Below are positions 1 to 40,357 of a stretch of 64,000 nucleotides of DNA, piece after piece (the stretch's first letter is position 1; each line of letters opens with the position of its first letter). A model generated the notes under the pieces. That model worked only from the letters and a program-made list of their open reading frames with translations. It was not told where the DNA came from and did not search any database. The DNA comes from Podarcis vaucheri (lineage: Eukaryota). The stretch lies in NCBI GenBank assembly GCA_965113315.1, contig OZ220365.1, one strand, 5' to 3'. The translations under genes and the position numbers were made by a program.

Positions 1-1006
1 TTATAAGAAAAAAACTTATTTGAAACAGAAAAGCCAGTTTGCCTAGCTGCTCTTTGATTGTCATCAAAGTGCAATCTGTATGTTTGTCCAATAGGACTGT
101 TATGCCTTTTGAGTTGGACACACTTGAGCTGTGATCCTAAACACCCTTACTGTATGGAGTAAGCCCACTGAACACAGTGGAGCTTCGTTCTAAGACCAAG
201 TAAACATACATGGGGCAACTGCTCAAGGGCGGGGAGCTGTAAAGGATATATGTTATTGCATTCTATAGTTAATATATGAAGCAATACTGTGCACAGATTT
301 ATTGGTGTGTGGGATTCTTTTCTGGACTGCTTGAATTAGTCAGGTTCGGTTTATTTATGTAGTCTTTTCCTGCTATTACTGCACTCAAAGCAGGTTCGCA
401 AAATATATGGTTACAATAATACCACAATTAAGTCGTCTCTCCCTTATTTCAATTATTTATTGCTGCAGTTACAGTTAAAAGAAAACCTTAATAAACCACT
501 GACACCAGAGTTAACATAACTGTAGGCATGTCGCCGAGGGAGTGCAAGGGCAGGAGAGTTCACCTACCACACTTGAAACGCTGCTTTCCTATGCATTGCT
601 GAGCGTCGTGCAGGGTTAGGGTAAGTTCAGGAAAGACAATTTGGCAAGCAGAGCCTGAGTGCTGACAAGGTAACAACACGCTAATTACTGCAAATGCCAC
701 GAGATGCCGTGTGCCCAGAATGCAAAAGGAAGAATAAATGTGACTCCTTTTTTGCATGCTGAGATCTCCACGTGGCTGTGCAAAGGGCATGTCTTCAAAT
801 GCCCCCTTTCTGGGATGGCTAGCCCTGAGATGATTTTGCTTAAGCGACTTCTGTCTTGTCTTCTAATTGGGAAGCCTTTTCCTTGGCTCTGGGCTATTAG
901 CGCAAAAGCAATGGTTGTGCCCTCAGTTCCCTGTCTCCCTTTATCTGAAGAGAAGGGGGTAGGGACACGCCCAGTTCAGCAAGGAGAAAAATTCAAACAC
1001 TTCCGA

Positions 1007-1757
1007 ACTCATCCTGAGCTTACAAATTGGTCCAGCTACAAAACCTGGACAAATGAATGTGTGTTATGCAATCTGGGTCACAATCCATATAGCCTTTTAC
1101 TTCCGTCTACCTCTCTATTTCCTTCCTTTGTGTCTCCTTTCTTGGTCACACAACTGACTCACCTATGATGAGAAGCACATTTTGAGCTTGAATTGAAAGC
1201 AAGTGGGTGGGCCTTGGGTACGCAGGTCGAGTGAATTGACCCTGAGTACAGTGACTATCATGTGGCTGAAAGCAACTTCTGAAGTGGTAGTGAAGTTTTG
1301 GATGCCAGCTTCCAGACACCAGGATTCACTGCAAATCATGCCCTCTGTGGCTCCAATCCTAAATGCTTGCTCCCCTGGGGGCAAGTCCCATTGAACTCAG
1401 CAGGGTGTACTTCTCAGTAAAGGTGGTGCGGTGGTCTAAACACTGAGCCTCTTGGGCTTGCTGATCAGAAGATCGGCGGTTCGAATCCCCATGACGGGGT
1501 GAGCTCCTGTTGCACGGTCCCTGCTCCTGCCAACCCAGCAGTTCGAAAGCACCTCAAAGTGCAAGTAGATTAATAGGTACTGCTCTGGCGGGAAGGTAAA
1601 CGGCGTTTCCGTGGTTCGCCTGAAGCAGCTTAGTCATGCTGGCCACATGACCTGGAAGCTGTACGCCGGCTCCCACGGCCAGTAAAGCGAGATGAGTGCC
1701 TTAACCCCAGAGTCGACCACGACTGGACCTAATGGTCAGGGGTCCCTTTACCTTTAC
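1007..1757 (+). repeat. Left copy of a local inverted duplication (partner 19496-20629)
   Basis: 1007-1255 is the reverse complement of 20381-20629 with 3 mismatches; about 1258-1460 matches about 19808-20010; ORF-track peptides THPELTNWSSYKTW... and KFWMPASRHQD... recur on opposite strands. Confidence 0.95.
1421..1757 (+). mobile_element. Sauria (Squam1) SINE, chimaeric
   Basis: tRNA-like head GGTGG..GTGGTCTAAA, B box GGTTCGAATCC, core GCAAGTAGA.TAATAGGTAC, (ACCTTT)n tail. Confidence 0.95.
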
Positions 1758-3312
1758 ACCTCTTTAGTAGTCATGGCTTCCCTCATACAATCTGGGAACT
1801 ATAGCTTAAGGTACTCCTGATGACGCTAAGCAATCCTGAGCAAACTACAGTTCCCAGGATTCTTGGGGAGGGGGGAAACAGTGTCAGATTAAAGTGATAT
1901 AAGGGTGCTTTAAATGTGTGGCACAGATGTGATAGCAGTGGTTCACAAAATAACTCCTGCTGAGACATATCCGAGAAACTGAAAGAAACTAAATATAATA
2001 CAAAACTACAATGCAATATGAAACAATATGAAAGCAAAAACATATCAGCACATTTTGAAAAAACAAAAAGGGTCCCTTCCCTTCCAGCCTCCTTCTCTCC
2101 AAGGGATATCCTGGCTCAATAACAACACTCGCCCAACAAACACATGCACGTCACACCCAAATCCTGTCTTACATCTAAACAATTTGTACAGTATCTGCGG
2201 CTCACCCAATATCACTCATCCAATTCTACTCCCACACCCACTGATAAGCGCAAACACACCACCCAACCAGTATCTCCCTCTTCATCCCCAAACTACTATC
2301 ATCAATCACTCCTCCCACTCTGCTAAAAATGTACTTCAGCAACACCAGGATGCAACAAAACCACTCGCCAACAGAGACACATAAAATATCGGAGCAAATT
2401 TCCACCCATCTATCACTCAGATGTACTGCTGCTGGAAGTGATCTGGTGTCATCCACATTGTTATCTTCCCCCTCCATCCCAAGATTCTCCCCCAAGGATG
2501 GGTGGATCTGCACACCCCCTCCCTGGTACTCCTTCCTCCCACAAAGGAGGGTCCTCTGACATTTTGACACACACAAGATGAAGGGGAAGACCCCTCATCG
2601 CAACCCTGCCTCGCCATGAGGCTCTGCCTCTTCCATTGCTGGTTTTGTTGTTATCTGGCAATCGGCAATGGCAGATTCTACTCCCTTCCTCCTCCACAGT
2701 TCTGTACAATCTTGTCTGGTGGCATCATATAGAGGTTTATGAAAAAGTGGAGAGGGAGATCAGGAGTATTATTATTTTACCATGTCCACCTGTTGAAAGA
2801 AGTAGTCATCATAATGTGGCCTCTCCATGGGAACAATTTATGGCTGGAAAATGTGACACTAGAAAACATGGAGATTGCTTATGTTTGAGAGGCTGAGATT
2901 AGAGAGAACGGAGGTCCCTAGAGCATTTGCATGATCTCCCAAAATAGTTGGTGGCAGCAGGCTGCTCTCTCAGTCGCAGTTGAGAAATGTCGTCCTAATG
3001 GAAAAACCATTCCTGCTTTTTGTATCTCTACCGTAAAACAGTATTAGTGCTTAAAGGGCCTTCCTCTCTCTTTTCAAGGGTGCTGTCATAAACTCTGCTG
3101 CAAGTCTGAAACCCAAAAGAACCCAAAGTCTTCTGGCTTCAATGAACTTTTTTGTGATGTCAGAGCGCTGCCTTTCCCACAAATATTCAGCAGTGACCAC
3201 TCACATATTAAAATCAAAGGGACTGTGCTTTGCTTTCCTCTTTCTGTTTGTGTGTTTCAAAAGTGCATGGGAGCTTGGGAAGGCTATTTTCACGTCAGGG
3301 TGTTCATGTGTA

Positions 3313-3527
3313 CTCCCTGCCAACCTAGCAGCTAGAAAGCACGAAGTGCACGTAGATAAATAGGTACCGCTCAGGCGGGAAGGTAAACGGTGTTTCTGTG
3401 CACTGCTCTGGTTCACCAGAAGCAGCTTGGTCATGCTGGTCACAGAATGCCAGTAAAGCGAGATGAGCGCCGCAACCCCAGAGTCATTTGCGACTGGACC
3501 TAATGGTCAGGGGTTCCTTTACCTTTA
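3313..3527 (+). mobile_element. Sauria SINE, 5'-truncated
   Basis: Sauria core and ACCTTT tail; TSD TTCATGTGT at 3303-3311 and 3528-3536. Confidence 0.9.
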
Positions 3528-6500
3528 TTCATGTGTCCATGGGTTGCTTTTTCCCTGTGCGCAGTGGTGTTTGGTGCCTATGGACGCTGGTGGGGTGGAA
3601 GGCAAGGAGGCCAACAGTAGGTGGTGCCAGAGCCAATGCCAGACAGAGCCAATTAAATTTGAGCTTTGCCCCCATCCTTCCAGCTGAGGGCAACACTGAG
3701 ACTGGGGAGGAGGAAGCTGCCACTCAGGGCCACCCCTTGGACTAGATGTAAGGAAGAAGATAGGCAGATAGGCGCAGGCTGAGGACAGAATGAGGTTGGG
3801 AGTGTAGTGCCCCATTTACCCTGATAGACCTGTCTCCACTGCAGGTGTGCTTGGGCACCTTTGTCCACACATAAGTGCTATCAGTTTTCTGCCTCTGAAA
3901 TCTCTCTCGATGTTTCCTGTCCTCACTAGTGGGCAGTACTTAATGTATTCACACTGTGTGTTGCTGTGCGTTGTGGGTGCAGGATTATTTTTTATAAGTT
4001 GCACCATTCTTTTTTTAATTATTTTTGAAATGCAAGTTTCCCAATATTCCATACTTGCACAAAAGTGTGCTCTGAATCCGTAAATCTGGATTGTGGGCAT
4101 CACACGGCACACATTTACCCTGCGCCTGTTTGATTTTTATTTGTTTAGAAGTATAACCTTTCCAGTGTAGCAAGGTTTGCACAAAAGAGCAGGTAACAAT
4201 AAATCTAAAATCTGTGTTTGCCACTCCAAGTCAGACATGGTTTTGGAGTTGCTTGTGTGAAAGGCTGCTACTTCCTTTTCTCCCCCTTTTTGTTCCTCAT
4301 CTCCTGTGGCTCTCTTGAGAAGAACAAAAGACCATCCAGGAGTTGCTATAGGTGGTGGAGGCAGCAGGGCTCCGCTCCTCCTTCTGCTCTTCACATGCTC
4401 TGCTTGCTTAAGTCCTTCCTCCTCCTGAGCCCACCCCAGTTCTTCCTCTGCACTCCCTCCCACCACCTCCCATCTAGAGACGGAGGTTAATTGGGAGAGG
4501 AGGGCAGGCAATCCTGAAGTCTTTTGACTATGCTTGCATTCTTTGGTTGGGGAACCGCATCACAAAAATTAGAGAAGTGTGAATTTGAAAAGTGAGCTGT
4601 GTTTTGGATCTTATGTTGGTTTAAGAAGTGCAGATGTCATAGGCTTTGTATTAAAATGTGAGCTGAACTAATTTTTTGCCTACCCATTCCTCTAAGCAGG
4701 CGTGTGAGGATTCAGGGATTAACAGGGAGCTAAGAGTTAACCTGATAATGTGGCAGGATTTTTTTTCTTTAATCTACATTATAAAATAACCAAGTTTAAT
4801 TAATGAGCTTTTAATTAATTAATTAATGAGACAAATCTTTAAATGACAGTTTGTGAAGGTACTGTAGCTGTGAAAGTCTTTTTTTTAATTTAAAAAAAGT
4901 TCTTATGGAGTGCGAGCTTGCACAAAGGGTAAAATATTTGTCTTTGAAAGCAAATCAACAGGTAATTAACACTCAAAGACTTGGGAAGATTTTCTGTTCC
5001 TCGTTACTAAATAATCTCCAAAGACATGGATGAAAGCTAATTAAATTAATCAGCTTTCTCATCTACTCAAAAAATGTTGCCGTTCTCCCCACCACCACCA
5101 TGCAATGTTTTCTTAAGAGATATCAAAAATCAAGACACTCATTTATCATGTTGCCCTTCCAGGCTACATCTGTTGTTCATCACTGTGGCTTTCATTTGTC
5201 ATCAGTTGTCACCACAAATATCCCTGGTACAGCTGCGTGTCAATTAATCAGTTCCTCGTTTCCCTGCGCCGACTCCCAACGCAGTGGACAGAGTAATCCC
5301 AAAGTTAATATGAATTCTAAAGTGCTCCAACCGTCCCTCTTAAAGGAAAAATAATGATGCTCAGATGCATCTTCTGCATTATGCACATGTCACCATGTTC
5401 TGTCTGCCTCCATATTGCAGATGATTAAGTGTTTTCATTTCAGGCTCTAGAGAGCATCCTAACGGTGTGCTTGGCAGATACAAGTAAATTGGGGAAGCGA
5501 GTGGGATATTCTGTCTGGAAGGTCTGTGAGCCTTCGGTGTAATCCCTCCAGTTCATTACTTGCAATTACCCGGGGACTAAACAAAACAACTAACCTGCTT
5601 TTTGCAGGGTCAATGAGGCTTTCATGTTGAGCATCACTGCAAATAATGCTTTGAAATAGCATGGAATCCACATGGCCAATAGGACTGACATTTTTTTTCT
5701 CAACACAACACAACACAACACAACAAATACCCAAGGATTCACAATTTATTTAAGCTGTAACATTACATTAAATATCAACATTTTGAACAATTTATAGACG
5801 CAGCATGCAAATTAATGTCTTGCTTTTCATTGGAATAGTAGGACATTTCTTCTAGGCTTTTGAAAACAAGCACACAAATGAATAGTTTGGGGACTGTACA
5901 GTGGGTACATTCTACAAAAGACTGCACAGCAGATGAAAATTAATTGGCTTCATTACACCTTATGAAAGTTTATCCTTCATGATGAGTTTTGATGATGAAA
6001 TCTCAATCAGCTTGGCACATTATGACTGTAGTTTATACGCAATGAACATTACACGTAATTGTTATGTGTTGCTACATTATGGGCAACATCATTATATGTT
6101 AAAATCCATTACATGTTTAGTCTATACTTGACGTCTCAGGGGTGACCTACTGAGGGAATTTAGCTGAATGTAATTAACATAATTTACATATCATTTTCAT
6201 GAATATGATGAATTTCAAATTACACTCAGTTGGCTCGGCACACTTGTTCTACGCTATTAGATCTGACTGGAGGTCTGCAGTCAAAGATTTGGCTAGTTAT
6301 TTTAAATCAGCACGTATGACCTTCTGATCTCTGTAACTTTGGCACATTTCCCTTTGCTTCTCTATCAGTTCCTCTCTCCTGCCCCGGTTCTTTCCCCTCT
6401 CTCATGTTCCTCATCCTGGCCCCTTATTTTTCTCTGATTCCTTTAAGTCTCCTCCCAAAACAGCCTGCGACCTTCTCCTTCCCCTGATCCAGGATTTTCT

Positions 6501-7668
6501 GACTCCTCCATCCCTCACTAAGATCTGAGCTGCTCTTGGTCAGGGGCAGCCAGAGATTCTCCCATTCACAATCCTCTATCAGCCACATTGTAGTCATCAC
6601 ATGTGACCAACACACATATTTTTTAAGTATGTTCCAGTGTAATTAAGAAAATCAATGGGATAGAGTCTAGATCAGATGGGCTAGTGATTCTGGACTCTTT
6701 CATGCCTTACCCTTTAATGTATGATGGACCTTTCTTCCTTCCAGGCACCTGGCCTGGTTGGCCACTGTGAGAACAGGATATTGGGCAAGTTTGGCCATTG
6801 GCCTGATCCACTAGGACTCATCTTAAGTTCTTGAGGCACCTCTGTTTTGCTAAACTCATTTCCCACAGTCCCTTCTGGATTTATGAATATTTCCTTATCC
6901 TTCAGCTCTGCTTCATGGATTAATTGGTTGGTTTTTTTAAGTAGGAAAGGACTTACCTTGGTATGTTGAATTGGGCTTTGTTCATATGTTGTCTCATAGG
7001 TATGGTTGCCACAAAGATGTCATTTCACAGAGGTTAAGTTTAGCCATACTAGGCAAACGTGTCACAATATTGCAGTTTCCCTGGGTGAGGCTATGGAAAA
7101 TAGCTCATATAACTACCCCAGTACCAACTCAAACGTGAAAGTTATGGCACTTCCATTGTAGAACTCCCTTTCATTGGAGGTGTGTTTGTCCTATCACCGA
7201 TGTCTTTTCAATGTCAGCTGCAGATATATCTGTTCCATTTTGGTCCTTGGGAATCGATGAGAGTTGGCTGTTCTGTTACCTGTGGAATTGTGCATTGCTG
7301 CAATTTGTGGAAGGTTATTCTCTTTTGATGATTTTATGGTTGTAGTGTTGGTATTTTGACATATGCTCTTGTAACTCCTGAACATCCTCCTGGGGACCTG
7401 GCTGAATGGTTACTTAAAATAAAACAACAACAAATTTGATTCTGATTGATCAATCAATCAATCAATCAATCAGCTTTTTGTTCAAGCCAGAGGCCATGAC
7501 AAAGTCACAGGAATAATATAAATAAAATACAGATGATATATCCATATTTTAAGCCAACATCCATGCAGTAAGAAAAAGACAAATCAACAAGCTTAAATCT
7601 GACTTAATTTCAAATTAAGTTTCCGAATGACCAAAATAACTTATGGTGATTTTATCTAACTCGTTTTC

Positions 7669-7669
7669 C

Positions 7670-7716
<47 letters not shown>
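7669..7716. repeat. (TGT)n microsatellite
   Basis: Direct reading. Confidence 0.95.
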
Positions 7717-8605
7717 GTAGCCAGAACATAAAGGGCCACTGAATTTGATTCAGATATTTAGTAGCAACCACTCAGCTGAAAAAGCACTGTGTATGCGTCC
7801 ATCACTTCCCTGAATAGTGAGAAATTCTACCCAGGTTTATGTTTCCTTTGGAGGAGATTGAACTAGAGACTTATTCAGCTCCTCTTTTTGTAATATTTAT
7901 TTTATTTACAAGTACAAAAATGGAGCAGTGAGTGGAGGCAAGCAATGGGCACTATCCTACAAGTCAGTGGATCTGGATCCTCACACCACGTCTCCAGAGA
8001 GAGGTGCTCTTGCGCCACAAGGCACTTCCAGCCTTCAAATCACAGCTCTCTTTCTCTACCTCCCTCCCAAAACTTCTTATTTTTCCCTTTCATATACACC
8101 TGCTCCCCCTTTTAACTAGAGGAGATGGGATGCATCACCTTCCTCAAGCACTGCTGGCTTTCCCGTTCCAAAAGCTGAACCACCTCCCTCCCAAACAATC
8201 AGCTTCCATGAAGAGACATCGGCTGGCAATTTTGGGCTATTAAGAAAAATTAACATTCTTTTGTCAAATCCTAGGTTTTGAACAGGCATTGATTTCAAGT
8301 CTGCTTCAGGTGTTCACAATCAATGTCATCTCAACAGACAAGTGGGAGGCGGCATGGAGACAGGTGTGTTAGCTCTGCCTGCCCCCATCATTCTTGCTGC
8401 TCCCCAGGAGGAGAAGGGTGAGTTTATGCAGCCAATAGATTCCTATATTTTGAAGGCTCCTGCCACATTTTAGAACCCTAATTTTCCTGACACGCACCCT
8501 CCAATTCATGGAAATCAATGACTGGGGTTGGGGGCAGTGAGCTAGCAGAGATCACAAATGCCCTGGAGATGGTTGTACTGATAGACCTATCCTATCATAC
8601 AGATA

Positions 8606-8808
8606 GGAAATGGTGTTTCCATGCGCTCTGACGTCCGTCACAGTGTTCTGTTGCACCAGAAGCAGTTTAGTCATGCTGGCCACATGACCCGGAAAGCTGT
8701 AAGAGGACAAATGCCAGCTCCCTTGGGCTGAAAGCGAGATGAGCGCCACAACCCCATAGTCACCTTTGACTGGACTTAACCATCCAGGAGTCCTTTACGT
8801 TTAACCTT
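8606..8808 (+). mobile_element. Sauria SINE 3' fragment
   Basis: AGTCATGCTGGCCACATGACCCGGAAAGCTG...GCGAGATGAGCGCC...CCTTTAC. Confidence 0.85.
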
Positions 8809-8809
8809 A

Positions 8810-9835
8810 TTCTGTGGGGTGCCACAGGGGACTATCTAATCTCGGTTGTTATTTAATATCTTCATGAAGCCGTTGGGAGTGGTTATTAGGAGTTTCGGGG
8901 CAAGGTGCTGTCAGTATGCTGATGACACTCACCTCTGTTTCTCCATAACATCTGGATGGGCCATTGCTTGGACCCAGTGGTGAAATGGATAAGGAAAAAC
9001 AAGCTGAACTTGAATCTATGCAAGACAGAGTCATTGTGGGGGAATAGCTCTTGTGTCTGAAAAATTGGTCACTTGACCTCTGGATAGGGTTGTGCTCCCC
9101 CTGAAGAAGCACATTCACAGTTTGGGGGTTCTTCTGGATCCAGTTCTGTCACTGAAGGTTCAGGTAGCCTCAGTGGCTAGTAGAGCGTTTTATCAACTGC
9201 AGCTAGTTTGACAGCTACGGACATTCCTGGAGCAGGAAAGCCTTGCCACAGCAGTTCCCGTGTTGGTTATTTCAAGACTGGATTACTGCAGTAGACTCTA
9301 CAGTGTTTGTGTCGTCTCTTGGGCTTGGTCCAGAAGCTGCAGTTTGTGCAGAATGTAGCAGCACAATTGCTGACGGGTGTGAGGCTTTGTCGGCATCTAA
9401 CACCTGTGCTGAGATATCTGCACTGATTGCCGATTTGCTACCAGGCCAAGTTCAGCATATTCCTATTAGCATATAAAGCCCTTAACTTGGGAACAGTTTA
9501 TCTATGAGATTGTCTTACCCACGTGACTGCTTTGATCAGCAAAATTGATGCTACTACAAATGCCACCTAATGCCCATGCCACATTTATAAAAACTCAATC
9601 ATTTAGTGGGGCAGCTCCTGCACTTTGGAACTCCTTGTCTTTAATAAATAATAATAATAATAATAATTTTTCACCTTCCTTTTGGCACCTGCTAAGAACA
9701 TTCTTGTTTAGACAAGCCTATCCTATGCTCAGAAAGCTGAGGTGATGTTAATCTGTTTTAGTATTTTAACTTTATATGTTTTTAAAGTACGGTTGTGAGT
9801 TTTTCTCGGTTTTATTTCTTTGTAAACCACTTTTT
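8810..9835 (+). mobile_element. Degenerate L2 (CR1/L2 group) LINE 3' part, RT remnant
   Basis: Encodes CGVPQGT (8813) and QYADDT (8911) RT motifs with frameshifts, followed by a T-rich 3' UTR. Confidence 0.85.
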
Positions 9836-9861
9836 TTTTGGGGGGGGGGTGTCTTAAAATA

Positions 9862-10000
9862 ATAGAATTACCGGTATACAGCTGGAAAGGACCCTGAGAG
9901 TCATCTAGTTCAACCCTCTGTAATGCAGGAATACACAGCTGTCCCATATGGGGAATCAAACCTGCAACCTTGGCGTAATCAGTAACACACTCTAACCAAT
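9862..10000 (-). mobile_element. tRNA-Ile-derived SINE with CR1-like 3' end (Squam2-like)
   Basis: Minus strand reads TTGGTTAGAGTGTG..TGATTACGCCAAGGTTGCAGGTTTGATTCCCC (tRNA-Ile-like), then GGGTTGAACTAGATGACTCTCAGGGTCCTTTCCAGC (CR1-type tail). Confidence 0.75.
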
Positions 10001-10017
10001 GGAATCAAGCAGTGTAT

Positions 10018-10263
10018 AGGTAAAGGTAAAGGGATCCCTGACCATTAAGTCCAGTCGTGACCGACTCTGGGGTTGCGGCACTCATCTCGCTTTATTGGCC
10101 AAGAGAGCCGGCGTACAGCTTCCGGGTCATGTGGCCAGCATGACTAAGCCACTTCTGGTGAACCAGAGCAGCGCACGGAAACGCCATTTACCTTCCCACC
10201 AGAGTGGTGCCTATTTATCTACTTGCACTTTGACATGCTTTCGAAGTGCTAGGTTGGCAGGAG
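10018..10263 (-). mobile_element. Sauria SINE, 5'-truncated
   Basis: Sauria sequence on minus strand; TSD AAGCAGTGTA at 10007-10016 and 10264-10273. Confidence 0.95.
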
Positions 10264-10411
10264 AAGCAGTGTAGAAATCTTAAGAAATAAAGAAACTAAA
10301 TAATAGACTGCTACCTTGTTGCAACACAGTGTAAAGGGCTGGTGACTCATTATCTTGGAAGTTTTCTAGCTCAAAGATGGATTCACACTGTTTGTGGATT
10401 CTCTGTGCGAT

Positions 10412-10791
10412 GGTAAAAAGTAAATGTAAAGGACCCCTGGAAGGTTAAGTCCAGTCAAAGGCGGCTATGGGGTTGCAGCCCTCATCTCGCTTTCAGGCCG
10501 AGGGAGACGGTGTTTGTCCACAGACATCTTTCCAAGACATGTGGTCAGCATGACTAAACTACTTCTGGCACAACGGGACACCATGACGGAAGCCAGAGTG
10601 CACAGAAATGCTGTTTACCTTCCTGCAGCAGCGGTACCTATTTATCTACTTGCACTGGTATGGTTTTGAGCTGCTAGGTTGGCAGGAGCTGGGACAGAGC
10701 AACGGGAGCTCACTCCGTCATGGGGATTTTAACCGCCAACCTTCTGATTGGCAAGTCCAAGAGGCTCAGTGGTTTAGACTACATCGCCACC
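10412..10791 (-). mobile_element. Sauria SINE
   Basis: Near full-length Sauria sequence on minus strand. Confidence 0.93.
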
Positions 10792-10824
10792 AGGAGTCTG
10801 AAAGGCAATCTCCCAATGCTACTC

Positions 10825-11060
10825 TCTAGACTTGGTCATGAAGGTTAGATTGGAACAACTGTAACACAGTGCCCTCAGTTCCCATTTCCCAGAGACAGTC
10901 CAGGAGGATACAATAGTCAATAGTATCAAATGCCGATGAGATCAAAAGGCAGGAGCAAAGTCACATTGCCCTTGTCTCACTCTCTGCAAAGGTCATCCAT
11001 CAAAGCAACCAAGACCAACTCTGTCCCATGGCCAGGCCTGAACCCAGATAGGAATGGATC
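10825..11060 (-). mobile_element. L2 LINE RT fragment
   Basis: Minus strand encodes DPFLSGFRPGHGTELVLVALMDDL, a typical L2 RT segment. Confidence 0.8.
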
Positions 11061-11910
11061 TTAAAAAATGAAGTCTCCTTCTCTCTATATAAAATATTAC
11101 GCAAATTATTAATAATACATACCCCCAACACCATATATATATCACAAAAATCTCATCAACCTTACAAATATTATATTGTTAGGGCTATTAAACCTAATTA
11201 GAACATAAATAATACCTAACCCTATCGTACAAAGCCCCAGAGACTCAACCACACATAAAACAGACACTTTAAATTCTATTAGGACATAAATATAACCATA
11301 ACTTAAATACATGATATCAAATTAATTAAATCTTATTATACATCTCTGTAGTTCAAACTGCTGGGTTATATTCAATAGATTTCACATTTCTTATACTCCA
11401 ATAAACTTTAAAATATTTCTTCTTTGAATCAAACGTTACTACAGCACAATTTAATTTTGATACACCTGTTCTACTACACAGCAAACCCACAACTGTGAAT
11501 CCACAACTGAGCTGGAAAACTTCCCTTGGTAGAGTGTTTTAGCGATGCACTGCAGTTTTTATTCAGGAAAATACTCTTGAGTCCTATGGATGTGTTTGTG
11601 TGTGTGTGTGTGTGTTTTAAGGTTGAAAGAGGTTAGATTACACAGGAACGTGGGCGTAACCAGGATTTTTGTTAGGGACGGCAGGCTTGTGGACCAATTG
11701 TACCTAGCCAAGTCTGCATGAAGAATCGAAGATCCAACACGTAAACATCGGCAGAAGAGACTCTCTTTGTAGTTCTGCTGTCCTTGGAGGTTCAATGGAT
11801 GGCAACTTGGGAAAGACTGTTCTCTCTGGTAGCTCTATAATCCATAGAATTCCATCCTTATAGAGGTATGTTTAGTTAGCGCTTCGCCCTATAGTTTTCA
11901 GCCTATGCTG

Positions 11911-11911
<1 letters not shown>

Positions 11912-11945
<34 letters not shown>
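11912..11945. repeat. (AC)n microsatellite
   Basis: Direct reading; a (TG)n tract lies at about 11590-11615. Confidence 0.9.
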
Positions 11946-11948
<3 letters not shown>

Positions 11949-13189
11949 TGTTTTTATGACCTAGCTGGAGATTGTTAATTAATGAACTTTTGGAACTGGA
12001 GTTTTATTTGGTTTTTAAATTGTATCACTGCCCTGGGACCTTAAGGTGAAAGGCAGGCATGAAACGTTATAACTAAGTAACTAAATGCCTAATCCTAAAA
12101 ATAAAAAATATGAGTGGGGATATTATGATAGGTTGCAATGTATTTCTTCACTTTGATCTGCTTTGTAATTGGCTGGTCAGTGGCACAAGCAGCAAAATCT
12201 GTTGTACCCTCTCCTCCCTGTACAGAAGCAAGAGTCTATGTGTTTGGCTATGGTCACTTGGGGAATGTATCTGCATTGAAAACTGGATTAAATTCTAGTT
12301 GGGGGGGGGGGGCGACTGCACTGTAACTTGACTGTCCAAGGACCCACTGTTTTCTGACTTCTGAGTGGCTCCGGAAACTAGAGACAAAACCACCACAAGG
12401 GATGGGGTGACAAGTACTTGTGTCCTAGACTCATTAGAGAGCCAATTTCTTATGTTTGGGATTTGGCTTGTGGCAAAAATGCCCCAGAGGTTGCCACCAC
12501 TGCCTTTTTCTTTCTTGTGAACAGACTCTGCTGTTCAAGTCACACTCTGCTTTTCTTCCTGTTCAATTGATTTACCTACTCTGGGAGCACTCAGTTTTCT
12601 AATTGGCTATGTTCTTGGTAATTGCCTCCGGTTTATTGATTGTTTATAGCGGACTTTTATAGTTCCTCTTATTCACTATCTAAATGTGTAAATATTATTT
12701 GTTGGTTAAGTGCATATTTTAGCTGTTCCAGAAGTGTACATTTTCATCAATACTTTTGTTTCATATGGGCAGTTTAGCCCTAATGGGCTTCTTTAGTTAC
12801 AATGACATAAAAGGAGGTTGTGCTGATGTTGCTAAAGAAGCAAATTGATGTGGTCCCATTTGCAGACTCAACTGGCCCATGCCAGAGAGTGGATCAGCTG
12901 GCCTTGGGCCCATAGACTTTGCAGAAGACTAAATTAAACACCACTATCAAATTTCCTACCTGCAATTTGTTCCTCCACCACCTTAGAGTTGCTCCCTCAA
13001 AGCTTTGAAAGTTGCCTATTGCAAAGCAAGGAGGTGGGAAGCAATTAGAAGAATATAGTTTTAGGTGTAATAATATCCTTTTGCAGGGTTGGTTCCAAGC
13101 CCTCCCCTGGCAAAGTTCTATCTGCTGTCTGCCCCCCCCCCCCAGATGCTTAATGGGCTTTCACAGGGCCTTACCATCAACAGGAGGCA

Positions 13190-13458
13190 GAAGAAGAAGA
13201 AGAAGAGGAGGAGGAGGAGTAGTTTGGATTTGATATCCCGCTTTATCATTACCCTAAGGAGTCTCAAAGTGGCTAACAATCTCCTTTTCCCTTCCTCCCC
13301 CACAACAAACAGTCTGTGAGGTGAGTGGGGCTGAGAGACTTCAGAGAAGTGTGACTAGCCCAAGGTCACCCAGCAGCTGCATGTGGAGGAGCGGGGACGC
13401 GAACCCAGTTCACCAGATTACAAGTCCACCGCTCTTAACCACTACACCACGCTGGCTC
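13190..13458 (-). mobile_element. Squam3-type tRNA SINE with (CTT/CTC)n tail
   Basis: Minus strand GAGCCAGCGTGGTGTAGTGGTTAAGAGC head, CTGGGTGACCTTGGGCTAGTCAC core, GGGATATCAAATCCAAACT end; four similar copies in the window. Confidence 0.9.
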
Positions 13459-13691
13459 TACCACCAGGCAGCAGGAGTTGTGGTGAGCAGAAATGACACT
13501 ATCATCAGCAATGGGCAGCTGGGAGATGTCAGGGACTGGGTGGATGAGGAAGAGTGATAGGAACCGCCCACCCAAGAGCCTCCCAGGGAGGGTACAGAAG
13601 AGGGAGGGTACAGAAGACTTAGATCCTGGTGGTAGGACACTGGGCAGCAGTCTGGGGAAAGGAGAACCTGTGGATCTCTAGATGTTGTCAG

Positions 13692-14134
13692 TGTTAGAAT
13701 TCCTGCTCCGTGATTGCAGTCATGGGATTGTTGTCTTTCACATCACGGTGTATGTTTTGACTCCACAAAGTGGGAAGTGATGGAGACAGGATGTTTGTGT
13801 TACTGTGTTCCGTGAAGTCGGACTATTGTCCTTTGTTCTTTCTCTTTGCTGTCTGATGCTAGAGAGATAGGGAGCCATGTTGCAGTGCTCCGTGTGTTTA
13901 TATGTAAATAAAGTAGATTAGCCAAAATGCTGAGTTGCTGAGGTCTGTTACACAAAGTGCAAACACTCTGCGGATCCCTAAGTGTGCTGGTGTCTGTTGG
14001 CATCGGTCGCTGTGATGTTTGGGCTGAAGAAAGCTTTTGAAGCTCCTAAATGATCAACCAGGAGGGAGAGAACATGCCAGTCAGGCATGTGTCTCTACCA
14101 GGGTCCCACTCGAGTTTAGGATGAGCTCCTGACA
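13692..14134 (+). mobile_element. Solo LTR (Gypsy-like, 443 bp) inside a small hAT-like MITE
   Basis: TGTTAG...CTGACA termini, internal AATAAA, perfect 5-bp TSD GTCAG at 13687-13691 and 14135-14139. Confidence 0.85.
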
Positions 14135-17100
14135 GTCAGACCCTGACTCCAACCATCCCCAGACATCACAGTCAGTGATCACAGGTGGTGAAGGTTGTAG
14201 CCCAACCATACCTAAAGGGCCAGAAGTTGCTCATCCCTGATTTAAATTCTCTCTAAAAGAGTTGTAGCATCCTTCATTCTATGGTTAAATAGTGGCATGA
14301 GCACCATCTGTTAGGCAGACTCCAGTTGACTATCTTTGTGGTTGTTGTTTTTTTTGGGGGGTGTCTTAGGATTCCATTTCTAGCAGACTACTAGCCATCA
14401 TGTATTCAAGGCTGCTGTTTCCATCTCTGCAATGCAAAGCTCTTATGGGTGGTCCGACATAGCATTTTAACAGGTTTCTCTGTGGTCCAGAAGGGGCTGG
14501 CTAGGAAGGGCTGCAGCACTCTGAAGTCTTGTTTATTAAATAAATGTGTCTGCTTGATAAAATGGCTTCCCCTGGCTTTGACAAAAATGATCAATGAAGC
14601 TCATTTCTTACAGCAGCAAATTCTGATGAAATTCTCAGCCTAATCCACCTAATATCATTTACTCCACTGGAATTCATGTGCTTTTAAAACATCCTGTCAA
14701 TTAAATGCATTTCATCAAAGGAGTGCATGTATTTCTGGTGACAAAGTGATTTGGTCAACAAAATACAGCTTGGAACTTGTACAAAAAAAATTACTTACTG
14801 GGGTGGAGGGAGAGAGAGAGAGAAGCAGATGTCAGTGAACAGAAATTATAGCGGTATCAAATCCACCCCCCTGGATGCAGCAGTGAGAGAGAGAAGGTGG
14901 GTTTGTGTTTTCTAGAAGATTGTATAGTGTTTCACATACATTATCTCAGTCATCCTTAGCGTGTGTCTGTAAAAATCTCAGTATTCTCATGAGCATACTC
15001 CATCCAGATTTTCAGGGTGTGTGTGTGTGAGAAGAGTTGTGTCTTTAAGAATAGGGCCTTTTAGTTTGTGACTGGGCCAAAATTAGCAAGTCCTTCCTCC
15101 TGCATCAAGTGACAGAGCTATCGGGGCAACTTTTCTGTGGCTGGACTGTGTTTACTAGAAAGACAACCCTGTGCTTTTATAGAAATATGTTCACTCCCAC
15201 ATTACTAGTTGAGGCCCAACCAATGGGGAGTAGCAGCCACTACCATCCATAACTTGCTTATGTTTTAGGAAGGCCCGTAGTGCAGTTTTCACCATATGGG
15301 TCCCCATTTGGTGTGTGTTGAGGTATGCATGATACTGAAAAGACATGCTTGCTTGAAGGAGCCCACTAGCCTACAGTGTCTCTCAAACTTGGGTCTCCAG
15401 CTGTTGTTCCCAACATCCCTGGCTAGGAAGACCTGTGGTCAGGGATGATGGGAGCTGTAGTCCGACAACAGCAGGAGACTCAAGTCTGAGAAACACTCAC
15501 CCATCCAAGCCACTTATGTCCAACGGTGACCCAGAAAGGCATTTCAGCCTGCTAAACCTTAGAACAGAAGTGGAGGACATATTTTTTAAGCTCAAGGTCC
15601 ATATTCCTTTCTTTGTAACCTGTCAGGGGCCACATGCCAGAGGCAAAAGTGGTCAGAGTAAATGAACGTAAATTTTACCTTTGTACAATAGAGTAGTTTC
15701 TACACAACCCCTACCCACACCTCTAGGCAAACAAGGATGACTGGGATAATGTGTGTGAAACACTCTGAACACTGGAGAGATGCTGTGTAAATGGTTTGAA
15801 GACAAACAATGCCATCACTATGCTGAAGTGTAGCAGGTTTGCATTCGGCTGGTGTCCGGATGGGAGATGACTTGGGTACCCAATGTTTAGCCTTCCTAAG
15901 GAGGAAAAGGAGGGTATAAATATATAAATATCTCTACCTCCTCAGGAACTAACTCTGCTTTGTTCCTCCCCCCTAAAAAACCGTTCAAAGTTATCATTAA
16001 TGTGCAACCAGCAATTCTTAAAAAAACAAAAAACAGAACTGTGTGTGAAAGTTGGCTTTGGGTTTGCTTGTGTTCTTCAGGAACAATTTTTCTGAAGCCA
16101 GCAAAGTTACAATGTCAGCATGCAGGAGGTCAGGACAGTCTTTGGACTGCTCTTGCCATTACTTAATGCAACGTTTGCTGTTTTCCTGCATCATTTACAA
16201 TGATGTATAGTTTTAAGAAGAATGGCTGTCAGTCCATCTGTTACAGTGAACCCCATCCTTAGCTACCGCCTTAGGTTCTTAACTGCTATTGTAATTCCGA
16301 AACCTTTGAGCAGTGCTTACTGTTATGGGTTTAGAACAGAGGCTATAAATTGCTCTGTGTCACTGGAAAAGGAATGCGGAAGTTCTCCTCTGTTCCAACT
16401 TGGTGGTGCATTGTCTAAAGTACACTTGGCGAATGGGGTTTACACATTTAAGTAATGATTGTCCAGGAACGAAATTAAATCATTCTCACTTCTCCTTGCG
16501 CTGAGGCACATGAATTGGAACGGTAATAAAAGAAGAATCTCATCAACTAACCACTGGCCACCAAAGTCATTTGTCTGTTATTGATCCACAGCATAATTTA
16601 ATGGCGTGGAAAGCAGCTACAAACAGAGTCTTTTGTTCCTCTCGCTAGGTTAGGAAAGCCTTTGAATGTACTTGTTGGGTGGGGGAGCGTGGAAAGGCAA
16701 GGTTAAAGCAGTCCTTTGTAATTTTTAAAAAACAGGTTCCCTCACAGTTCTTTTGAGAGTTGGCACACATGCTGTGACTTACTGTAACTTACATCCTAAC
16801 TTCTACTGAAGGGAAGCTAGAAATATCATATTATACACATAAATGTTAAGCAATCTGCCCCCCTCCCCTCTCTCTGCAGCTGTTCATCTCAACTGTTTCA
16901 TTTTGTTATGAATCCTGGATCAGGAACAAGGTATGCAAAAGATTATAGCTTCAGTGAAAGAACAATCTAGAGCTAAACCTGTTAAGTATAATTTTGGTTT
17001 AATTGACACAGAAATGGAAAATGTATGTGTGTTAATGAAGGCTTAAAATGGAAAATAGCTAAATGTGTATTGCTAACATTGGGATTTTTCCACAGTAGTT

Positions 17101-17243
17101 TTTCTAAGGGACTTTAAGCTCCTAAATGGGTTGATGATTACCTGTTTTCTGTTACTCTAAACTGTTGTAACCTTAAATCAGGTGACAATGGCATTGAGTT
17201 GCAAATTCACCATCTTGAAAGGGTGGTGGCTGATAGTCTTTCA

Positions 17244-17333
17244 GGTATCTGAAGAAGTGTGCATGCACACGAAAGCTTATACCAAGAACTAACTTAGTTG
17301 GTCTTTAAGGTGCTACAGGAAGGAATTTTTTTA
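17244..17333 (+). mobile_element. Penelope-like element terminal fragment with minimal hammerhead ribozyme motif
   Basis: GGTAT-CTGAAGA-A-GTGTGCATGCACAC-GAAA-GC-TT-ATACC; same sequence as 39920-40005; flanking repeat TTTCAGG. Confidence 0.8.
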
Positions 17334-19495
17334 TTTCAGGGAACAGAAGATGTAAATGAAGCTCTCAAGGGAACCAGCTCCAGGGAAATGGATGCTGTTA
17401 AAGAAAGAGAGAAAGACCTCTGCTTCTAGGTCTGTTTTGGATTGTTTCATATTTTCTAAGATGCTGAGCCTGTGACAAGACATTGTATGGATATGTTGGT
17501 TGTATCTTTGATACTTATGTCCTGTTCTTGAAGAGTTCTGCAAGTAAAAGTTTAAATAATAGTTTTATGGGCCTGGACAATGATTTCAGAGAGCCTGGTT
17601 TGGACAACTTCTTATTTTATTTATTTTTAATTGCATTCATATCCTGCCTGCTTGCCTGCCTTCCATCAGGGAGCCCAAGGCAGGATTACATGTAGTTCCC
17701 GGGCTATTCCCCAGCGCCAGGCACTGTCCAGACCTGCTTAGCTTCAGCAAGGTGGTGGCTTCACCTGCATTCAGAGAATAGTGAGTGGCACTGCTGGGAG
17801 GCAGCTGATAGGGATGAGGGGGAAACTCCATTCAGTTCACAATTACAGCTGAATCTGGCAAATTTGCAATTTCTGAAATGAGATGACACCTGAAACACAG
17901 CCATCCTTCAAAATCTGCACTTACCGTTACTGGACGCAAGTACAGATCTACTTTATTTTTCCTGTAAAATATAACCTCATGGGATGTCACAAAACGGTCC
18001 TTTAAGGGGATGCCAGTTGCAGCTGCTGCAATTGTGACCCAATGCAAGCACAACAGACTTTTTGTGCCCAGTTCTCTCATTTGCTACCTGAGCTCAGCAT
18101 CCTCCGCTTTGCAAGAAAGGAAATCGTTTCTATAGGTAAAATTGTATGGGAGGAGGGCATGCCAGGGAGGAGATAATTAAATCCGCCAACTATAAGGCAA
18201 GAAGTGATGAAGCTCAAGCAAGCTTCCTTGGGGAGACTGTTCCATGACAGTGGTATAGCTACTGAGAAGGCACTGAGAAGGCCTTTGCGACTTGCAAAAA
18301 AACAGCTACCCCATCATGACATGATAATGATAAAACCACGATCCTAACAGCCCTTGGGGGGCGTATCTGACCAGTGTGACAACTACTCTAGAAATCCTGC
18401 ATGCTTTTGACTCCTCATCTTGCAAGACTTAAAACCTGACTGCTCCTTCTGTTCCATTAGTTAGTTAGTGTCAGCTTTACTTTTAAGCTGAAGTAGCGGA
18501 GGTGTGCCACAACCCCCCCCCCCACAAGGTTACTTCTGAAATTTATGGCTGGTGTCATCATTTACTGGCAGGGAATTAAAAAGGGGAGGGGGAAAGAAGA
18601 AGAAATCAACCTTGGCCTGTTTTGCCACAGACAAATCTATCTATAGCTAAAAATGTGCAGAACCCATAAAAGGGATTTTGCCTGCATAACCTGCAGCTAT
18701 AAATCCCAGCTGGCTGTAGTACCTTGGCACAACGGCTAAGTGATACGTGCAGCCCTCTGGGCTTAAAATGGAGGCCTTTGGGGGAAAGGCGGGGGTGGGG
18801 GGGACTTGCTGAGTTGGTGCATTAATAAATACAAACACAAGGATCTCGTTGGAAGGATTTAAGCAGCAGAGCATGGCAGGAACCCGTGGCGAGTGGCGCT
18901 TGAGCGACAGGCAGTGAGTTTTGATTGAAAACGGGCTATTAATGGATATAATTAAGACACAGTTTCAGTTTAAAGATGAACTGGCCGTAGAGCAGCAAAT
19001 TGTGGAGCACTTATCCTGCTGAGCCATGTAATCAGGGAATGAAGTTGTAATTGTGGCTCTCCTTGTTTTGCTTCTGCCAGAGAAGAGGATATAGGATTCA
19101 ATTTAACAAACAATTTGCCACATGGGTCACCCCTGCTGAGTGGCAAAGCGAACCTTTCTCGGATCTTTTTTCTTCTCCCCGGCATTTCTGCAGCTTTTAA
19201 AACCTGTTACATACAGAGTGACTCATGCAAGATGAAAGCCACGGCAAGGTTACCTGTAGTTCTCAGAAAAAGAACCAAGCGGGGTCTCCTCATCAACACT
19301 TGCCTCCCCTCCCTATTATTTTCAATTTCTAGATCAGCTCCTTGACTGCCCTGCAGCAAACTGGACTCTGGAAAGAACTGACTACTTGCAAACAGTCTCT
19401 CCTTTAGAGACTAAAGTTTCGCATTTTGTGCCTTCTTTGCTATTCCTCAGACACACAGTCTAACAGTGCAACCCAATACAAGGTACTGAGAAGTA

Positions 19496-19850
19496 AAAAA
19501 AGGTAAAGGACCCCTGGACAGTTAAGTCCAGTCAAATGCAACTGTGGGGTTGTGGCGCTCATCTTGCTTTCAGGCCAAGGAAGCTGGTGTTTGTCCACAG
19601 ATAGCTTTTCGGGTCCTGTGGCCAGCGCAGCGGGACACCGTGGCGGAAAACAGAGTGGATGGAAATGGCGTTTACCTTCCCACCACAGTGATACCTATTT
19701 ATCTACTTGCACTGGTGTGCTTTCAAACTGCTAGGTTGGCAGGAGCAGGGACAGAACAACGGGAGCTCACCCCATCGCGGGGATTCGAACCGCCAACCTT
19801 CTGATCGGCAAGCCCAAGAGGCTCAGTGGTTTAGACCACAGCACCACCTT
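19496..19850 (-). mobile_element. Sauria SINE
   Basis: Sauria sequence; perfect 12-bp TSD TACTGAGAAGTA at 19484-19495 and 19851-19862. Confidence 0.95.
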
Positions 19851-20629
19851 TACTGAGAAGTACACCCTGCTGAGTTCAATGGGACTTCCCCCAGGTGAGC
19901 AAGCATTTAGGATTGCAGCCACAGAGGGCATAATTTGCAACAAATCCTGGTGTCTGGAAGCTGGCATCCAAAACTTCATTATCACTTCAGAACTTGCTTT
20001 CAACCACATGCCGATCATTGTAAAAAGGTAAAGAGACCCCTGACCAGTAGGTCCAGTCGTGGCCGACTCTGGGGTTGCGGCGCTCATCTCACTTTATTGG
20101 CTGAGGCAGCCGGCGTACAGCTTCCAGGTCATGTGGCCAGCATGACTAAGCTGCTTCTGGCGAACCAGAGCAGCGCACAGAAACTCTGTTTACCTTCCCG
20201 CTGGAGTGGACCCTATTCATCTACTTGCACTTTTACGTGCTTTTGAACTGCTAGGTTGGCAGGAGCAGGGACCGAGCAACGGGAGCTCACCCCGTCACGG
20301 CGATTCGAACCGCCTACCTTCTGATCGGCACGTCCTAGGCTCTGTGGTTTAACTCACAGCGCCACCTGTGTCCCTGTACGGTCACTGTACTCAGGGTCAA
20401 TTCACTCGACCTGCGTACCCAAGGCCCACCCACTTGCTTTCAATTCAAGCTCAAAATGTGCTGCTCATCATAGGTGAGTCAGTTGTGTGACCAAGAAAGG
20501 AGACACAAAGGAAGGAAATAGGGAGGTAGACGGAAGTAAAAGGCTATATGGATTGTGACCCAGATTGTATAACACACATTCATTTGTCCAGGTTTTGTAG
20601 CTGGACCAATTTGTAAGCTCAGGATGAGT
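19851..20629 (-). repeat. Right (probably ancestral) copy of the inverted duplication, interrupted by a second SINE
   Basis: Reverse-complement match to 1007-1420. Confidence 0.95.
20023..20374 (-). mobile_element. Sauria SINE, full length
   Basis: GGGAC head to ACCTTT tail on minus strand; diverged TSD CGATCATTGTA / CGGTCACTGTA. Confidence 0.95.
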
Positions 20630-28084: not shown

Positions 28085-29255
28085 TCACAATTATTGTCTT
28101 TATAGTTATAAAAAATTATATATATATAAAAAATTATTCTCTAAGATGTCATGTAGTATTAACAACCAGACAGACCCAACATGACTCAGATTGTGGCACT
28201 GGTAGAGGAGGCTTAACACATCCATCCATCCATCTATGTAGCTATCTGGCTATCATCTTATGCATGGTTCTCCTCATCTCCGTTTTATCCTCACAACATC
28301 CCTGCAAAGTAGGGAGATGGTGAGAGATGGTGACTGGCCCAAGGTCACCTAGGGAACATCATTGCTGAGAGGGCATGTGAACCCTGCCTGCCTCTCGGTC
28401 CTGGTCCAAAACTTTAAACACGACCATTGGCTTTCCCCAGTGCTGAGTTTCTCAACCTCTTCTTCCAGCTGCTATTTAGACTAGGAGGAAAGCTCCTAGA
28501 TGTTAAAAGGAGCTGCTTACTTCCAGGGGCAAACAGCTGCTTTTGGGGGGTGGGGTGATTTCCATTAGGTGTATAATGTATAGTTCAACACTGAGTAGCT
28601 TTACCCAGCTCTCACACATCTGGGACCGTGACTAGACAACACTATTATCACTATTCTGTTCTTCCCAATATTGCTACTCTTTCTGTGTTTGATTATGCTT
28701 AGAACGTTACAACAATGAATTGACCTATATTCCTTATGACTATTATTTCTAGTACATATAATGCCTAATTGCACATACAATGCTTTAATGTACTGTAATG
28801 CATATATCTATTCCATGGGTAGTTATAATAATACTTAGAGTATCTATCCTATGGATATTATTTCTAGCACATTAGCATTTTAATCAGCCAAATACATTTT
28901 TGACTAAGAGGTACATCATTTCCTTAACAACATGGATATCAATCTAATAATATAAATCTATCTGTTGTACTAGGCAATGTATATTATTGATCGTACATTG
29001 CTCGTTGATTGTACATTACCACGTGACTATTAATCTAGATTCTAGATTCTATCTAGATTCTAATTTAAAATATGAAGACTATACTTGACAGACATGACTG
29101 GAACATTTCTTAGAGCTAGAGTGAAAGTTTTGCATGCCAAATCCAGTCCCCTGGCATCTCCAGGCAGGGATGGGGAAAACCCCCATGTGAAATATCTGCA
29201 TGGCTGCCTGTTGGTTTGGACACTGTTGAGCTGATTTTGTATAAGAGAGCTTCCT

Positions 29256-29937
29256 AAAAAAGCCAATGCAATTCTGGGCTGCATCAATAGGAGTATAACA
29301 TCTAGATCAAGGGAAGTAATAGTGCCACTGTATTCTGCTCTGGTCAGACCTCACCTGGAGTACTGTGTCCAGTTCTGGGCACCACAGTTCAAGAAGGACA
29401 CTGACAAACTGGAACGTGTCCAGAGGAGGGCAACCAAAATGGTCAAAGGCCTGGAAACGATGCCTTATGAGGAACGGCTAAGGGAACTGGGCATGTTTAG
29501 CCTGGAGAAGAGGAGGTTAAGGGGTGATATGATAGCCATGTTCAAAAATATAAAATGATGTCATATAGAGGAGGGAGAAAGGTTGTTTTCTGCTGCTCCA
29601 GAGAAGCGGACACGGAGCAATGGATCCAAACTACAAGAAAGAAGATTCCACCTAAACATTAGGAAGAACTTCCTGACAGTAAGAGCTGTTTGACAGTGGA
29701 ATTTGCTGCCAAGGAGTGTGGTGGAGTCTCCTACTTTGGAGGTCTTTAAGCAGAGGCTTGACAACCATATGTCAGGAGTGCTCTGATGGTGTTTCCTGCT
29801 TGGCAGGGGGTTGGACTCGATGGCCCTTGTGGTCTATTCCAATTCTATGATTCTATGATTCTATGATTCTATGATTCTATGATTCTATGATTCTATGATT
29901 CTATGATTCTATGATTCTATGATTCTATGATTCTATG
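29256..29937 (+). mobile_element. CR1 LINE, 5'-truncated, ORF2 C-terminus plus (ATTCTATG)n tail
   Basis: [21 protein letters not shown]...LEKRRLRGD motif, two in-frame stops downstream, canonical CR1 octamer tail. Confidence 0.98.
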
Positions 29938-39790: not shown

Positions 39791-40005
39791 AGATAGGTAG
39801 CCGTGTTGGTCTGCCATAGTCAAAATAAAAAAAATCCTTCCAGTAGCACCTTAAAGACCAACTAAGTTAGTTCTTGGTATGAGTTTTCGTGTGCATGCAC
39901 ACCTGCATGCATACATGTGTATCTGAAGAAGTGTGCATGCACACGAAAGCTCATACCAAGAACTAACTTAGTTGGTCTTTAAGGTGCTACTGGAAGGAAT
40001 TTTTT
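39791..40005. mobile_element. Penelope-like element, inverted (palindromic) terminal-repeat pair with hammerhead motif
   Basis: About 70-bp inverted arms; CTGAAGA...GAAAGCTC core at 39923; 13-bp TSD TGTTAACAACTAC at 39778-39790 and 40006-40018. Confidence 0.88.
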
Positions 40006-40357
40006 TGTTAACAACTACTGATTTACAAAAAAACCTGTCAATTTTGTATCCTTATTCTTGGCACAAATTATTCTGTATATAGAGGAACAGGTGGATCATT
40101 CCATTCATTTGGACTGCTCTTAACCATTTTTGGGAGACTGACTAAAGGCTCCCCTTCACAGCTTGCTCTACAATAGTAACATTCCAGATCTTTGTGTTTT
40201 GAAGTGTCACCTCCAAGCTATCGATCCACCTTATCATCGCTGCAGCTGTCGGACCAGAGCAGCAAATTCTTTGCAGTCCTGGCTTACAAGTTCTACCCTT
40301 AGGAAGGTTAGCTGGGGTTTAACCCAAACACATTTTAAAACAGTACTCCTGTATATA

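What the first reader, a model, noticed from the sequence alone, without database searches (positions are those of the whole stretch)
1007..20629. Inverted duplication about 19 kb apart with a sharp identity step (candidate gene conversion or inversion substrate)
Seen: 1007-1255 vs 20381-20629 (reverse complement) differ at 3 of 249 positions, while the adjacent block (about 1258-1440 vs 19829-20010) has about 12 differences in about 180 bp. The step falls exactly where a Sauria SINE (20023-20374) interrupts only the right copy. Inference: an older duplication whose outer block was recently homogenised by ectopic conversion that stopped at the SINE heterology. Such inverted arms could also flip the intervening ~18 kb, which holds several enhancer-like stretches.
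Basis: partly seen in the sequence, partly recalled or inferred. Interest (0 to 1): 0.7.

Follow-up and report, generated by a model that had tools for sequence, protein, structure and literature searches.

The report
Old inverted duplication, partly re-copied
In DNA with no detected gene, likely from a lizard, a roughly 450-base stretch exists as two opposite-facing copies 19 kb apart, and its outer 249 bases were likely overwritten from one copy to the other long after the duplication; this is a tidy example of ordinary gene conversion, with no function or inversion shown.

Summary
Outer blocks differ at 3 of 249 sites and have two copies in the genome. Inner blocks differ at 10 of 161. The best change-point (~1256, permutation p=0.014) falls at the site where a Sauria-type SINE (SINE A) interrupts only the right copy.

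SINE A gives an internal clock. It is 2.8-4.1% from its subfamily consensus, so the arms should differ by 5.5-8.2%. The inner block fits; the outer block does not (P 6e-4 to 2e-6). A later conversion tract bounded by the SINE is the best reading.

New here: the right arm is native and the left derived. The left SINE is a chimera of two subfamilies, and its host element has lost its outer end. The duplicate therefore likely arose by a SINE-to-SINE template switch, either as a templated insertion or as the scar of an 18-kb inversion; these cannot be separated without an outgroup.

No reads or relatives were available, so conversion, polymorphic inversion and artefact were not tested directly. 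The longest perfect match is 82 bp, a poor inversion substrate. No gene or RNA family was found in the arms. A new instance of known processes; low interest.

The parts
1007..1255 (+). Left arm, outer block (near-identical, two-copy, no detected gene)
   Evidence: 3 of 249 differences; 2 copies in genome; no Pfam or Rfam match
1247..1258 (+). Empty site matching the target-site duplication of SINE A; identity step at 1255/1256
   Evidence: sequence; change-point ~1256
1259..1420 (+). Left arm, inner block (6.2% diverged); about 1345-1420 is the left part of a small old repeat (E1)
   Evidence: 10 of 161 differences; 2 full copies plus 12 partial hits to the E1 part
1421..1755 (+). Chimeric Sauria-type SINE: 5' junction and first ~40 bp of SINE B type, short-subfamily type from 1474-1516 onward; holds the inner, homologous breakpoint
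   Evidence: diagnostic-site table; only 1 of the 29 nearest genome copies has the full B-type 5' end on a short 3' end (alignment)
1750..1935 (.). Palindromic MITE-like host element of the left SINE's 3' end; its outer ~30-bp left end is missing
   Evidence: profile of 24 genome copies plus this copy's own right arm; missing end not found in the window
1936..19459 (.). Interior ~17.5 kb: single-copy non-coding DNA with SINEs, a LINE relic and other repeats; orientation relative to ancestor unknown
   Evidence: repeat depth profile; no Pfam hit in its ORFs of 72 aa or more; no Rfam hit
19460..19495 (-). 3' target-site duplication of SINE B (19484-19495) and continuation of host repeat E1; shows the right arm is the native locus
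   Evidence: 12 of 12 identical TSD; the continuation matches other E1 copies
19496..19849 (-). SINE B, long subfamily, 5'-truncated, 18 of 310 non-CpG differences from its nearest-copy consensus
19849..20010 (-). Right arm, inner block
20011..20022 (-). 3' target-site duplication of SINE A
20023..20374 (-). SINE A, short subfamily, full length, right arm only; internal clock and boundary of the tract
   Evidence: best other copies 93-94% identical; 12 of 291 non-CpG differences from consensus, 8 of them private
20381..20629 (-). Right arm, outer block (includes most of the 5' TSD of SINE A, 20378-20389)

Best explanation
This is a two-copy inverted duplication of about 450 bp of non-coding DNA, likely made by a template switch between two oppositely oriented SINEs 18 kb apart, whose outer 249 bp were likely re-homogenised much later by ectopic gene conversion that ended at a SINE insertion. 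Step 1 (shown): the right locus is native, because SINE B keeps its target-site duplication and its host repeat continues. Step 2 (chimera shown, mechanism inferred): a repair or replication end in a resident left SINE paired in register with SINE B, copied outward through the inner and outer blocks, and rejoined without visible homology at the outer end; the left SINE's own 5' end and flank were lost. Whether this was a plain templated insertion or also inverted the interior is undecided (about even). Step 3 (shown): SINE A inserted in the right copy only and split the homology into two blocks. Step 4 (inferred): one or a few conversion tracts of about 250 bp reset the outer block, bounded by the end of homology and by SINE A; direction unknown. 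No function is needed; the structure is most likely neutral and now largely inert.
For: Two copies only. Step at the SINE site, permutation p=0.014. SINE A clock: 8-12 non-CpG differences in about 290 sites predict 5.5-8.2% between arms; inner block 10 of 161 fits (P 0.22-0.72), outer block 3 of 243 does not (P 6e-4 to 2e-6). All 6 CpG-site positions of the outer block are unchanged, against 13 of 62 changed in SINE A (weak). Chimeric SINE: shared 5' junction with SINE B and short-subfamily state at nearly all diagnostic sites from 1516 on; the two 3' flanks lie in different host elements. Tract length matches the 200-300 bp reported for interlocus conversion (PMC3924818, passages). TE insertions disrupting pairing between duplicates is standard (PMC3924837, passages). 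Rate heterogeneity rarely gives such windows: 1 of 81 non-overlapping 249-bp windows in 7 repeat pairs of 4.5-10% divergence had 3 or fewer differences, and that window lies in a young LINE stretch shared genome-wide.
Against: No second species, haplotype or read set was examined, so homogenisation is inferred from one assembly. The direct outer vs inner test is modest (p=0.007; 0.027 counting the triple change once). SINEs may overstate the neutral rate of unique DNA. TE pairs are an imperfect null (one search shows mosaic ancestry in one). Short-3' SINEs with partly B-type 5' ends do occur (7 of 29 by a loose motif test, 1 of 29 complete), so the chimera rests mainly on the shared junction and the mismatched flanks. 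Conversion had to start between copies already about 5% diverged, where perfect runs are below the ~200-bp minimal segment, though shorter ones are not excluded (PMC3924818). My one apparent second local conversion tract was rejected, so no independent example from this genome supports the rate.
Confidence: 0.65

Rival explanations
1. Two-step origin. Only the inner block (plus a short stretch) was duplicated in the old event. The outer block was added by a second, younger templated repair or staggered-break inversion that used the 12-bp target-site repeat as microhomology. The step would then date a second duplication, not a conversion.
For: Explains the step at the TSD and the younger age equally well. 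Staggered-break inversions leave inverted duplicates of median 321 bp (PMC1885836, passages).
Against: Needs the old duplicate to end, or the new junction to form, within 12 bp of SINE A and to restore the exact pre-insertion junction on the left. More steps than one conversion tract.
Confidence: 0.13
2. No homogenisation. The outer block is functionally constrained in both copies (enhancer or non-coding exon), or is low by chance.
For: The direct test is only p=0.007-0.027. The region appears intergenic, where conserved non-coding elements are common (general knowledge).
Against: Needs about five-fold constraint on both the native and the transplanted copy, ending at a SINE site. No Pfam or Rfam match. 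Against the SINE clock P is at most 6e-4. Conservation in other vertebrates was not testable.
Confidence: 0.1
3. The arms are an active hinge: repeated crossing-over in the outer block flips the 19-kb interior and keeps the block homogenised, as in the yeast flip/flop region.
For: Geometry fits. A yeast 24-kb region is re-inverted through homogenised inverted repeats (PMC9731477, abstract).
Against: Those repeats are 4 kb. The human NAHR inversions in PMC6748972 have repeats of 654 bp to 24.2 kb (passages). Here the block is 249 bp with a longest perfect run of 82 bp and three differences.
Confidence: 0.07
4. Assembly or polishing artefact: one outer block was corrected towards the other.
For: Not excluded; no reads could be laid.
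Against: The contig or scaffold is 130 Mb in a 285-piece assembly and there are no N near the arms. A 249-bp repeat with unique flanks is easily spanned by long reads. Three differences remain, and the equally mappable inner block is not homogenised.
Confidence: 0.05

Closest known systems
Interlocus (ectopic) gene conversion between duplicates, interrupted by TE insertions (PMC3924837 and PMC3924818, passages read)
   Same: Patch of low paralogue divergence, about 250 bp, bounded by a TE insertion
   Different: Very short non-coding duplicate. Conversion seems to have happened after the insertion, on one side of it. Not confirmed by a species tree.
FoSTeS/MMBIR template-switch rearrangements (PMC4888836, passages); Alu-Alu chimeric junctions (recalled)
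   Same: Local inverted copy with one junction inside a SINE pair, leaving a chimeric SINE, and one non-homologous junction with a small deletion
   Different: Sauria-type SINEs in a squamate; fixed and old; enzymology not testable
Inversion-associated inverted duplications in Drosophila (PMC1885836, passages)
   Same: Non-repetitive inverted duplicate of a few hundred bp at both ends of a segment
   Different: One junction is SINE-homologous rather than plain end-joining; inversion of the interior not shown
Inverted-repeat-mediated recurrent inversions: human NAHR inversions (PMC6748972, passages) and yeast flip/flop region (PMC9731477, abstract and outline)
   Same: Homogenised inverted repeats around a ~20-kb segment
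   Different: Repeats here are shorter than the smallest in that human set; no second orientation seen; no genes in the arms

Membership tests
Ectopic gene conversion tract between duplicates | Locally reduced paralogue divergence relative to the age of the duplication | tested here: met
   3 of 243 against 5.5-8.2% expected; change-point p=0.014
Ectopic gene conversion tract between duplicates | Sequence is a low-copy duplicate, not a young dispersed repeat | tested here: met
   2 of 2 candidates are the arms; dispersed-repeat control gave 685 candidates
Ectopic gene conversion tract between duplicates | Paralogues cluster within species, or share polymorphism | not testable with these tools
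   no relatives held; run search listed none
SINE-SINE template-switch duplication | In-register chimeric SINE at one junction | tested here: met
   flanks in two different host elements
SINE-SINE template-switch duplication | Microhomology or blunt join at the other junction, judged against the ancestral allele | tested here: inconclusive
   both outer flanks unique; the missing host-element end was found near neither; no ancestral allele
Inversion-breakpoint (staggered-break) duplication | Interior inverted relative to an outgroup | not testable with these tools
   no outgroup sequence available
Recurrent NAHR inversion | Long, highly identical inverted repeats (654 bp or more in the human set) | tested here: not met
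   249 bp, longest perfect run 82 bp against PMC6748972
Recurrent NAHR inversion | Both orientations segregate | not testable with these tools
   no reads
Large DNA transposon with terminal inverted repeats (e.g. Maverick/Polinton; features recalled) | Target-site duplication outside the arms, coding interior, other copies | tested here: not met
   no flanking direct repeat; no Pfam hit in interior ORFs; arms occur twice only
Sauria SINE (SINEs A and B, left SINE) | 3' end of ACCTTT repeats; TSD beginning with T | tested here: met
   ends and TSDs; features from PMC13295347 (passages)
Sauria SINE (SINEs A and B, left SINE) | Alignment to the Repbase family consensus | not testable with these tools
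   no repeat library held; over 5,000 genome candidates per query

The most novel reading that the evidence does not exclude
A SINE-primed template switch some 20-30 My ago inverted an 18-kb non-coding block and duplicated its edge. The 250-bp arms then went on exchanging sequence and can still flip the block, so that very short unique inverted repeats sustain a recurrent regulatory inversion in lizards.
Probability: 0.06. Interest if true: 0.6.

Novelty: new member of a known kind. Interest (0 to 1): 0.25.

Why it matters
It is a compact, self-dating record of three ordinary processes: SINE-guided duplication, SINE insertion and later conversion. If confirmed across species, it shows that 250 bp of unique sequence already about 5% diverged can still be converted over 19 kb in a squamate germ line, below usual minimal-homology estimates. 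It would matter more only if the interior proves inverted or polymorphic and holds real enhancers. The literature searches (listings only, except the papers named as read) showed no paper on this locus, but the library lacks most subscription journals.

Tried and rejected
Sequencing-run search with window 1-8500 and the word PACBIO: none was listed, which is no evidence; no reads were laid.

High-copy young repeat: rejected (control).

Terminal repeats of a Polinton or other large transposon: rejected.

Coding or structured-RNA role for the arms: no Pfam match in 6 frames of 1007-1422; 0 Rfam hits in 1-23000. Of 219 window ORFs of 72 aa or more, 1 had a Pfam hit, below its cut-off and far from the arms.

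A decayed TSD after the left SINE: rejected; those bases belong to a palindromic host element.

Polarising insertion vs inversion: neither outer junction is crossed by a repeat, and the host element's lost end was not found in the window.

A 407-bp perfect run between two inverted LINE copies about 335-350 kb downstream first looked like a second conversion tract. It was rejected as support because all 40 scored genome copies match it at about 100%.

The first null-distribution script timed out. It was rerun on 9 independent pairs out of 90 candidates; 2 pairs with 0% substitutions were left out of the count.

Earlier-findings look-ups by place, by sequence and by the first word set returned nothing. 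No paper supplements were opened.

Full report
Observation. A SINE (A, 20023-20374) with a 12-bp target-site duplication sits in the right copy only; the left has the empty site at 1247-1258. A change-point scan not told about the SINE puts the split at ~1256 (p=0.014, 1500 permutations). The outer block has two copies in the 1.6-Gb genome, the inner block two full copies, and both outer flanks are unique. The tool warns that absence of hits is not proof of rarity, but it returned 685 candidates for a dispersed repeat of the same window.

Setting. The SINEs end in ACCTTT repeats with T-initial TSDs, as described for Sauria SINEs (PMC13295347, passages), so the host is a squamate; 'lacertid' is my recall, not a result. 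No ORF of 72 aa or more in the window passes a Pfam cut-off (219 scanned), and there is no Rfam hit in 1-23000. The nearest host-gene domains found are AMOP at about -318 kb, a PLP-aminotransferase exon at about -228 kb and BACK/PHR at about +231 kb (one search scanned 60 of 339 long ORFs). By recalled human synteny these would be ISM1, SPTLC3 and BTBD3, which would put the window in the intergenic stretch between the last two; short exons could have been missed. In 904 kb, 21 two-copy pairs were found and 4 were at least 97% identical. The other three have ends like LTRs or whole LTR elements, so this is the only near-identical pair of non-TE DNA there: uncommon, but not extraordinary.

Which copy is original. 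SINE B (19496-19849) has a perfect 12-bp TSD, and the small repeat it interrupts continues beyond it as in other genome copies, so the right arm is native. The left SINE (1421-1755) shares SINE B's truncated 5' junction and B-type first ~40 bp, but carries the short-subfamily state at nearly all diagnostic sites from 1516 on. Of its 29 nearest genome copies, 22 have the other 5' type, and only 1 has the full B-type 5' end on a short 3' end. Its 3' end lies in a different, palindromic element whose outer ~30 bp are missing and were not found in the window. The left SINE is thus a chimera marking an in-register junction, and the left arm is derived.

This fits a template switch between inverted SINEs followed by a non-homologous rejoin (FoSTeS/MMBIR-like; PMC4888836, passages). 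Two histories need the same two junctions: a templated insertion, or an inversion of the interior with a duplicated edge, as in Drosophila, where such duplicates have a median of 321 bp (PMC1885836, passages). I could not separate them.

Dating the step. The left arm lacks SINE A, so the duplication is at least as old as SINE A, barring copying from an empty allele. SINE A's best other copies are 93-94% identical. It differs from the consensus of 29 near copies at 12 of 291 non-CpG sites, 8 of them private. Independent arms should then differ by 5.5-8.2%. The inner block fits (P 0.22-0.72); the outer block, 3 of 243, does not (P 6e-4 to 2e-6). At 0.0013 substitutions per site per My (rate quoted in PMC13295347) the duplication is roughly 20-30 My old and the outer-block reset roughly 5 My, with wide error.

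Empirical null. As a rough null, 1 of 81 windows of 249 bp in 7 repeat pairs of similar divergence had 3 or fewer differences. That window looked like a second conversion tract (407 bp perfect), but it is a young LINE reverse-transcriptase stretch shared at about 100% by all 40 scored copies. It therefore supports neither chance nor local conversion, and it shows that TE pairs are an imperfect null.

Mechanism. Best reading (0.65): old SINE-guided duplication, then SINE A insertion, then one or a few conversion tracts that reset the outer block up to the SINE. Tract size agrees with the 200-300 bp reviewed in PMC3924818, and TE insertions are known to break pairing between duplicates (PMC3924837; passages). 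Rivals: a second, younger duplication of the outer block through the TSD (0.13), constraint or chance (0.10), an active inversion hinge (0.07) and artefact (0.05). The hinge is unlikely because the longest perfect run is 82 bp, against repeats of 654 bp or more in the human set of PMC6748972 and 4 kb in yeast (PMC9731477, abstract).

Limits. No reads, haplotypes or related genomes were available, so clustering of paralogues, the orientation of the interior and the assembly's accuracy are untested. Nothing here bears on enhancer activity. Notes of this scan on other genomes report similar patterns (unchecked, not used as support), which suggests the pattern is common. Verdict: real, a new member of a known kind, interest 0.25.

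Noticed in passing
window 44695-45310 and 47685-48293: Inverted pair, 84% identical, 2.4 kb apart. The left copy is a dispersed ~616-bp repeat with 685 genome candidates, so these are two TE copies or ends.
   Followed up: partly
window 29254-29879; also about 1.5 kb and 9 kb upstream of the window (L009): A ~600-bp sequence in three local copies at 98-99% identity; probably a young repeat or LTR.
   Followed up: no
window 39824-40009 and 17245-17336: A ~186-bp palindromic element whose arm also matches 17245-17336 at 95-97%; MITE-like.
   Followed up: no
L123-L124, about 79-85 kb on window numbering (C17 ~110,997,100-111,003,300): Two identical 1,036-bp LTR-like repeats 4 kb apart, with a Gag matrix (PF01140) ORF between them: a young retrovirus-like insertion, described only.
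   Followed up: no
L170:2622-3028 and its inverted partner about 15 kb away: Two inverted LINE copies 7.7% diverged overall share a 407-bp identical reverse-transcriptase stretch that is also near-identical in 40 of 40 scored genome copies. This suggests a young, mosaic LINE family.
   Followed up: partly
   Followed up: no
window 8850-9640: Decayed LINE reverse-transcriptase relic, with a 68% identical copy about 204 kb upstream.
   Followed up: no
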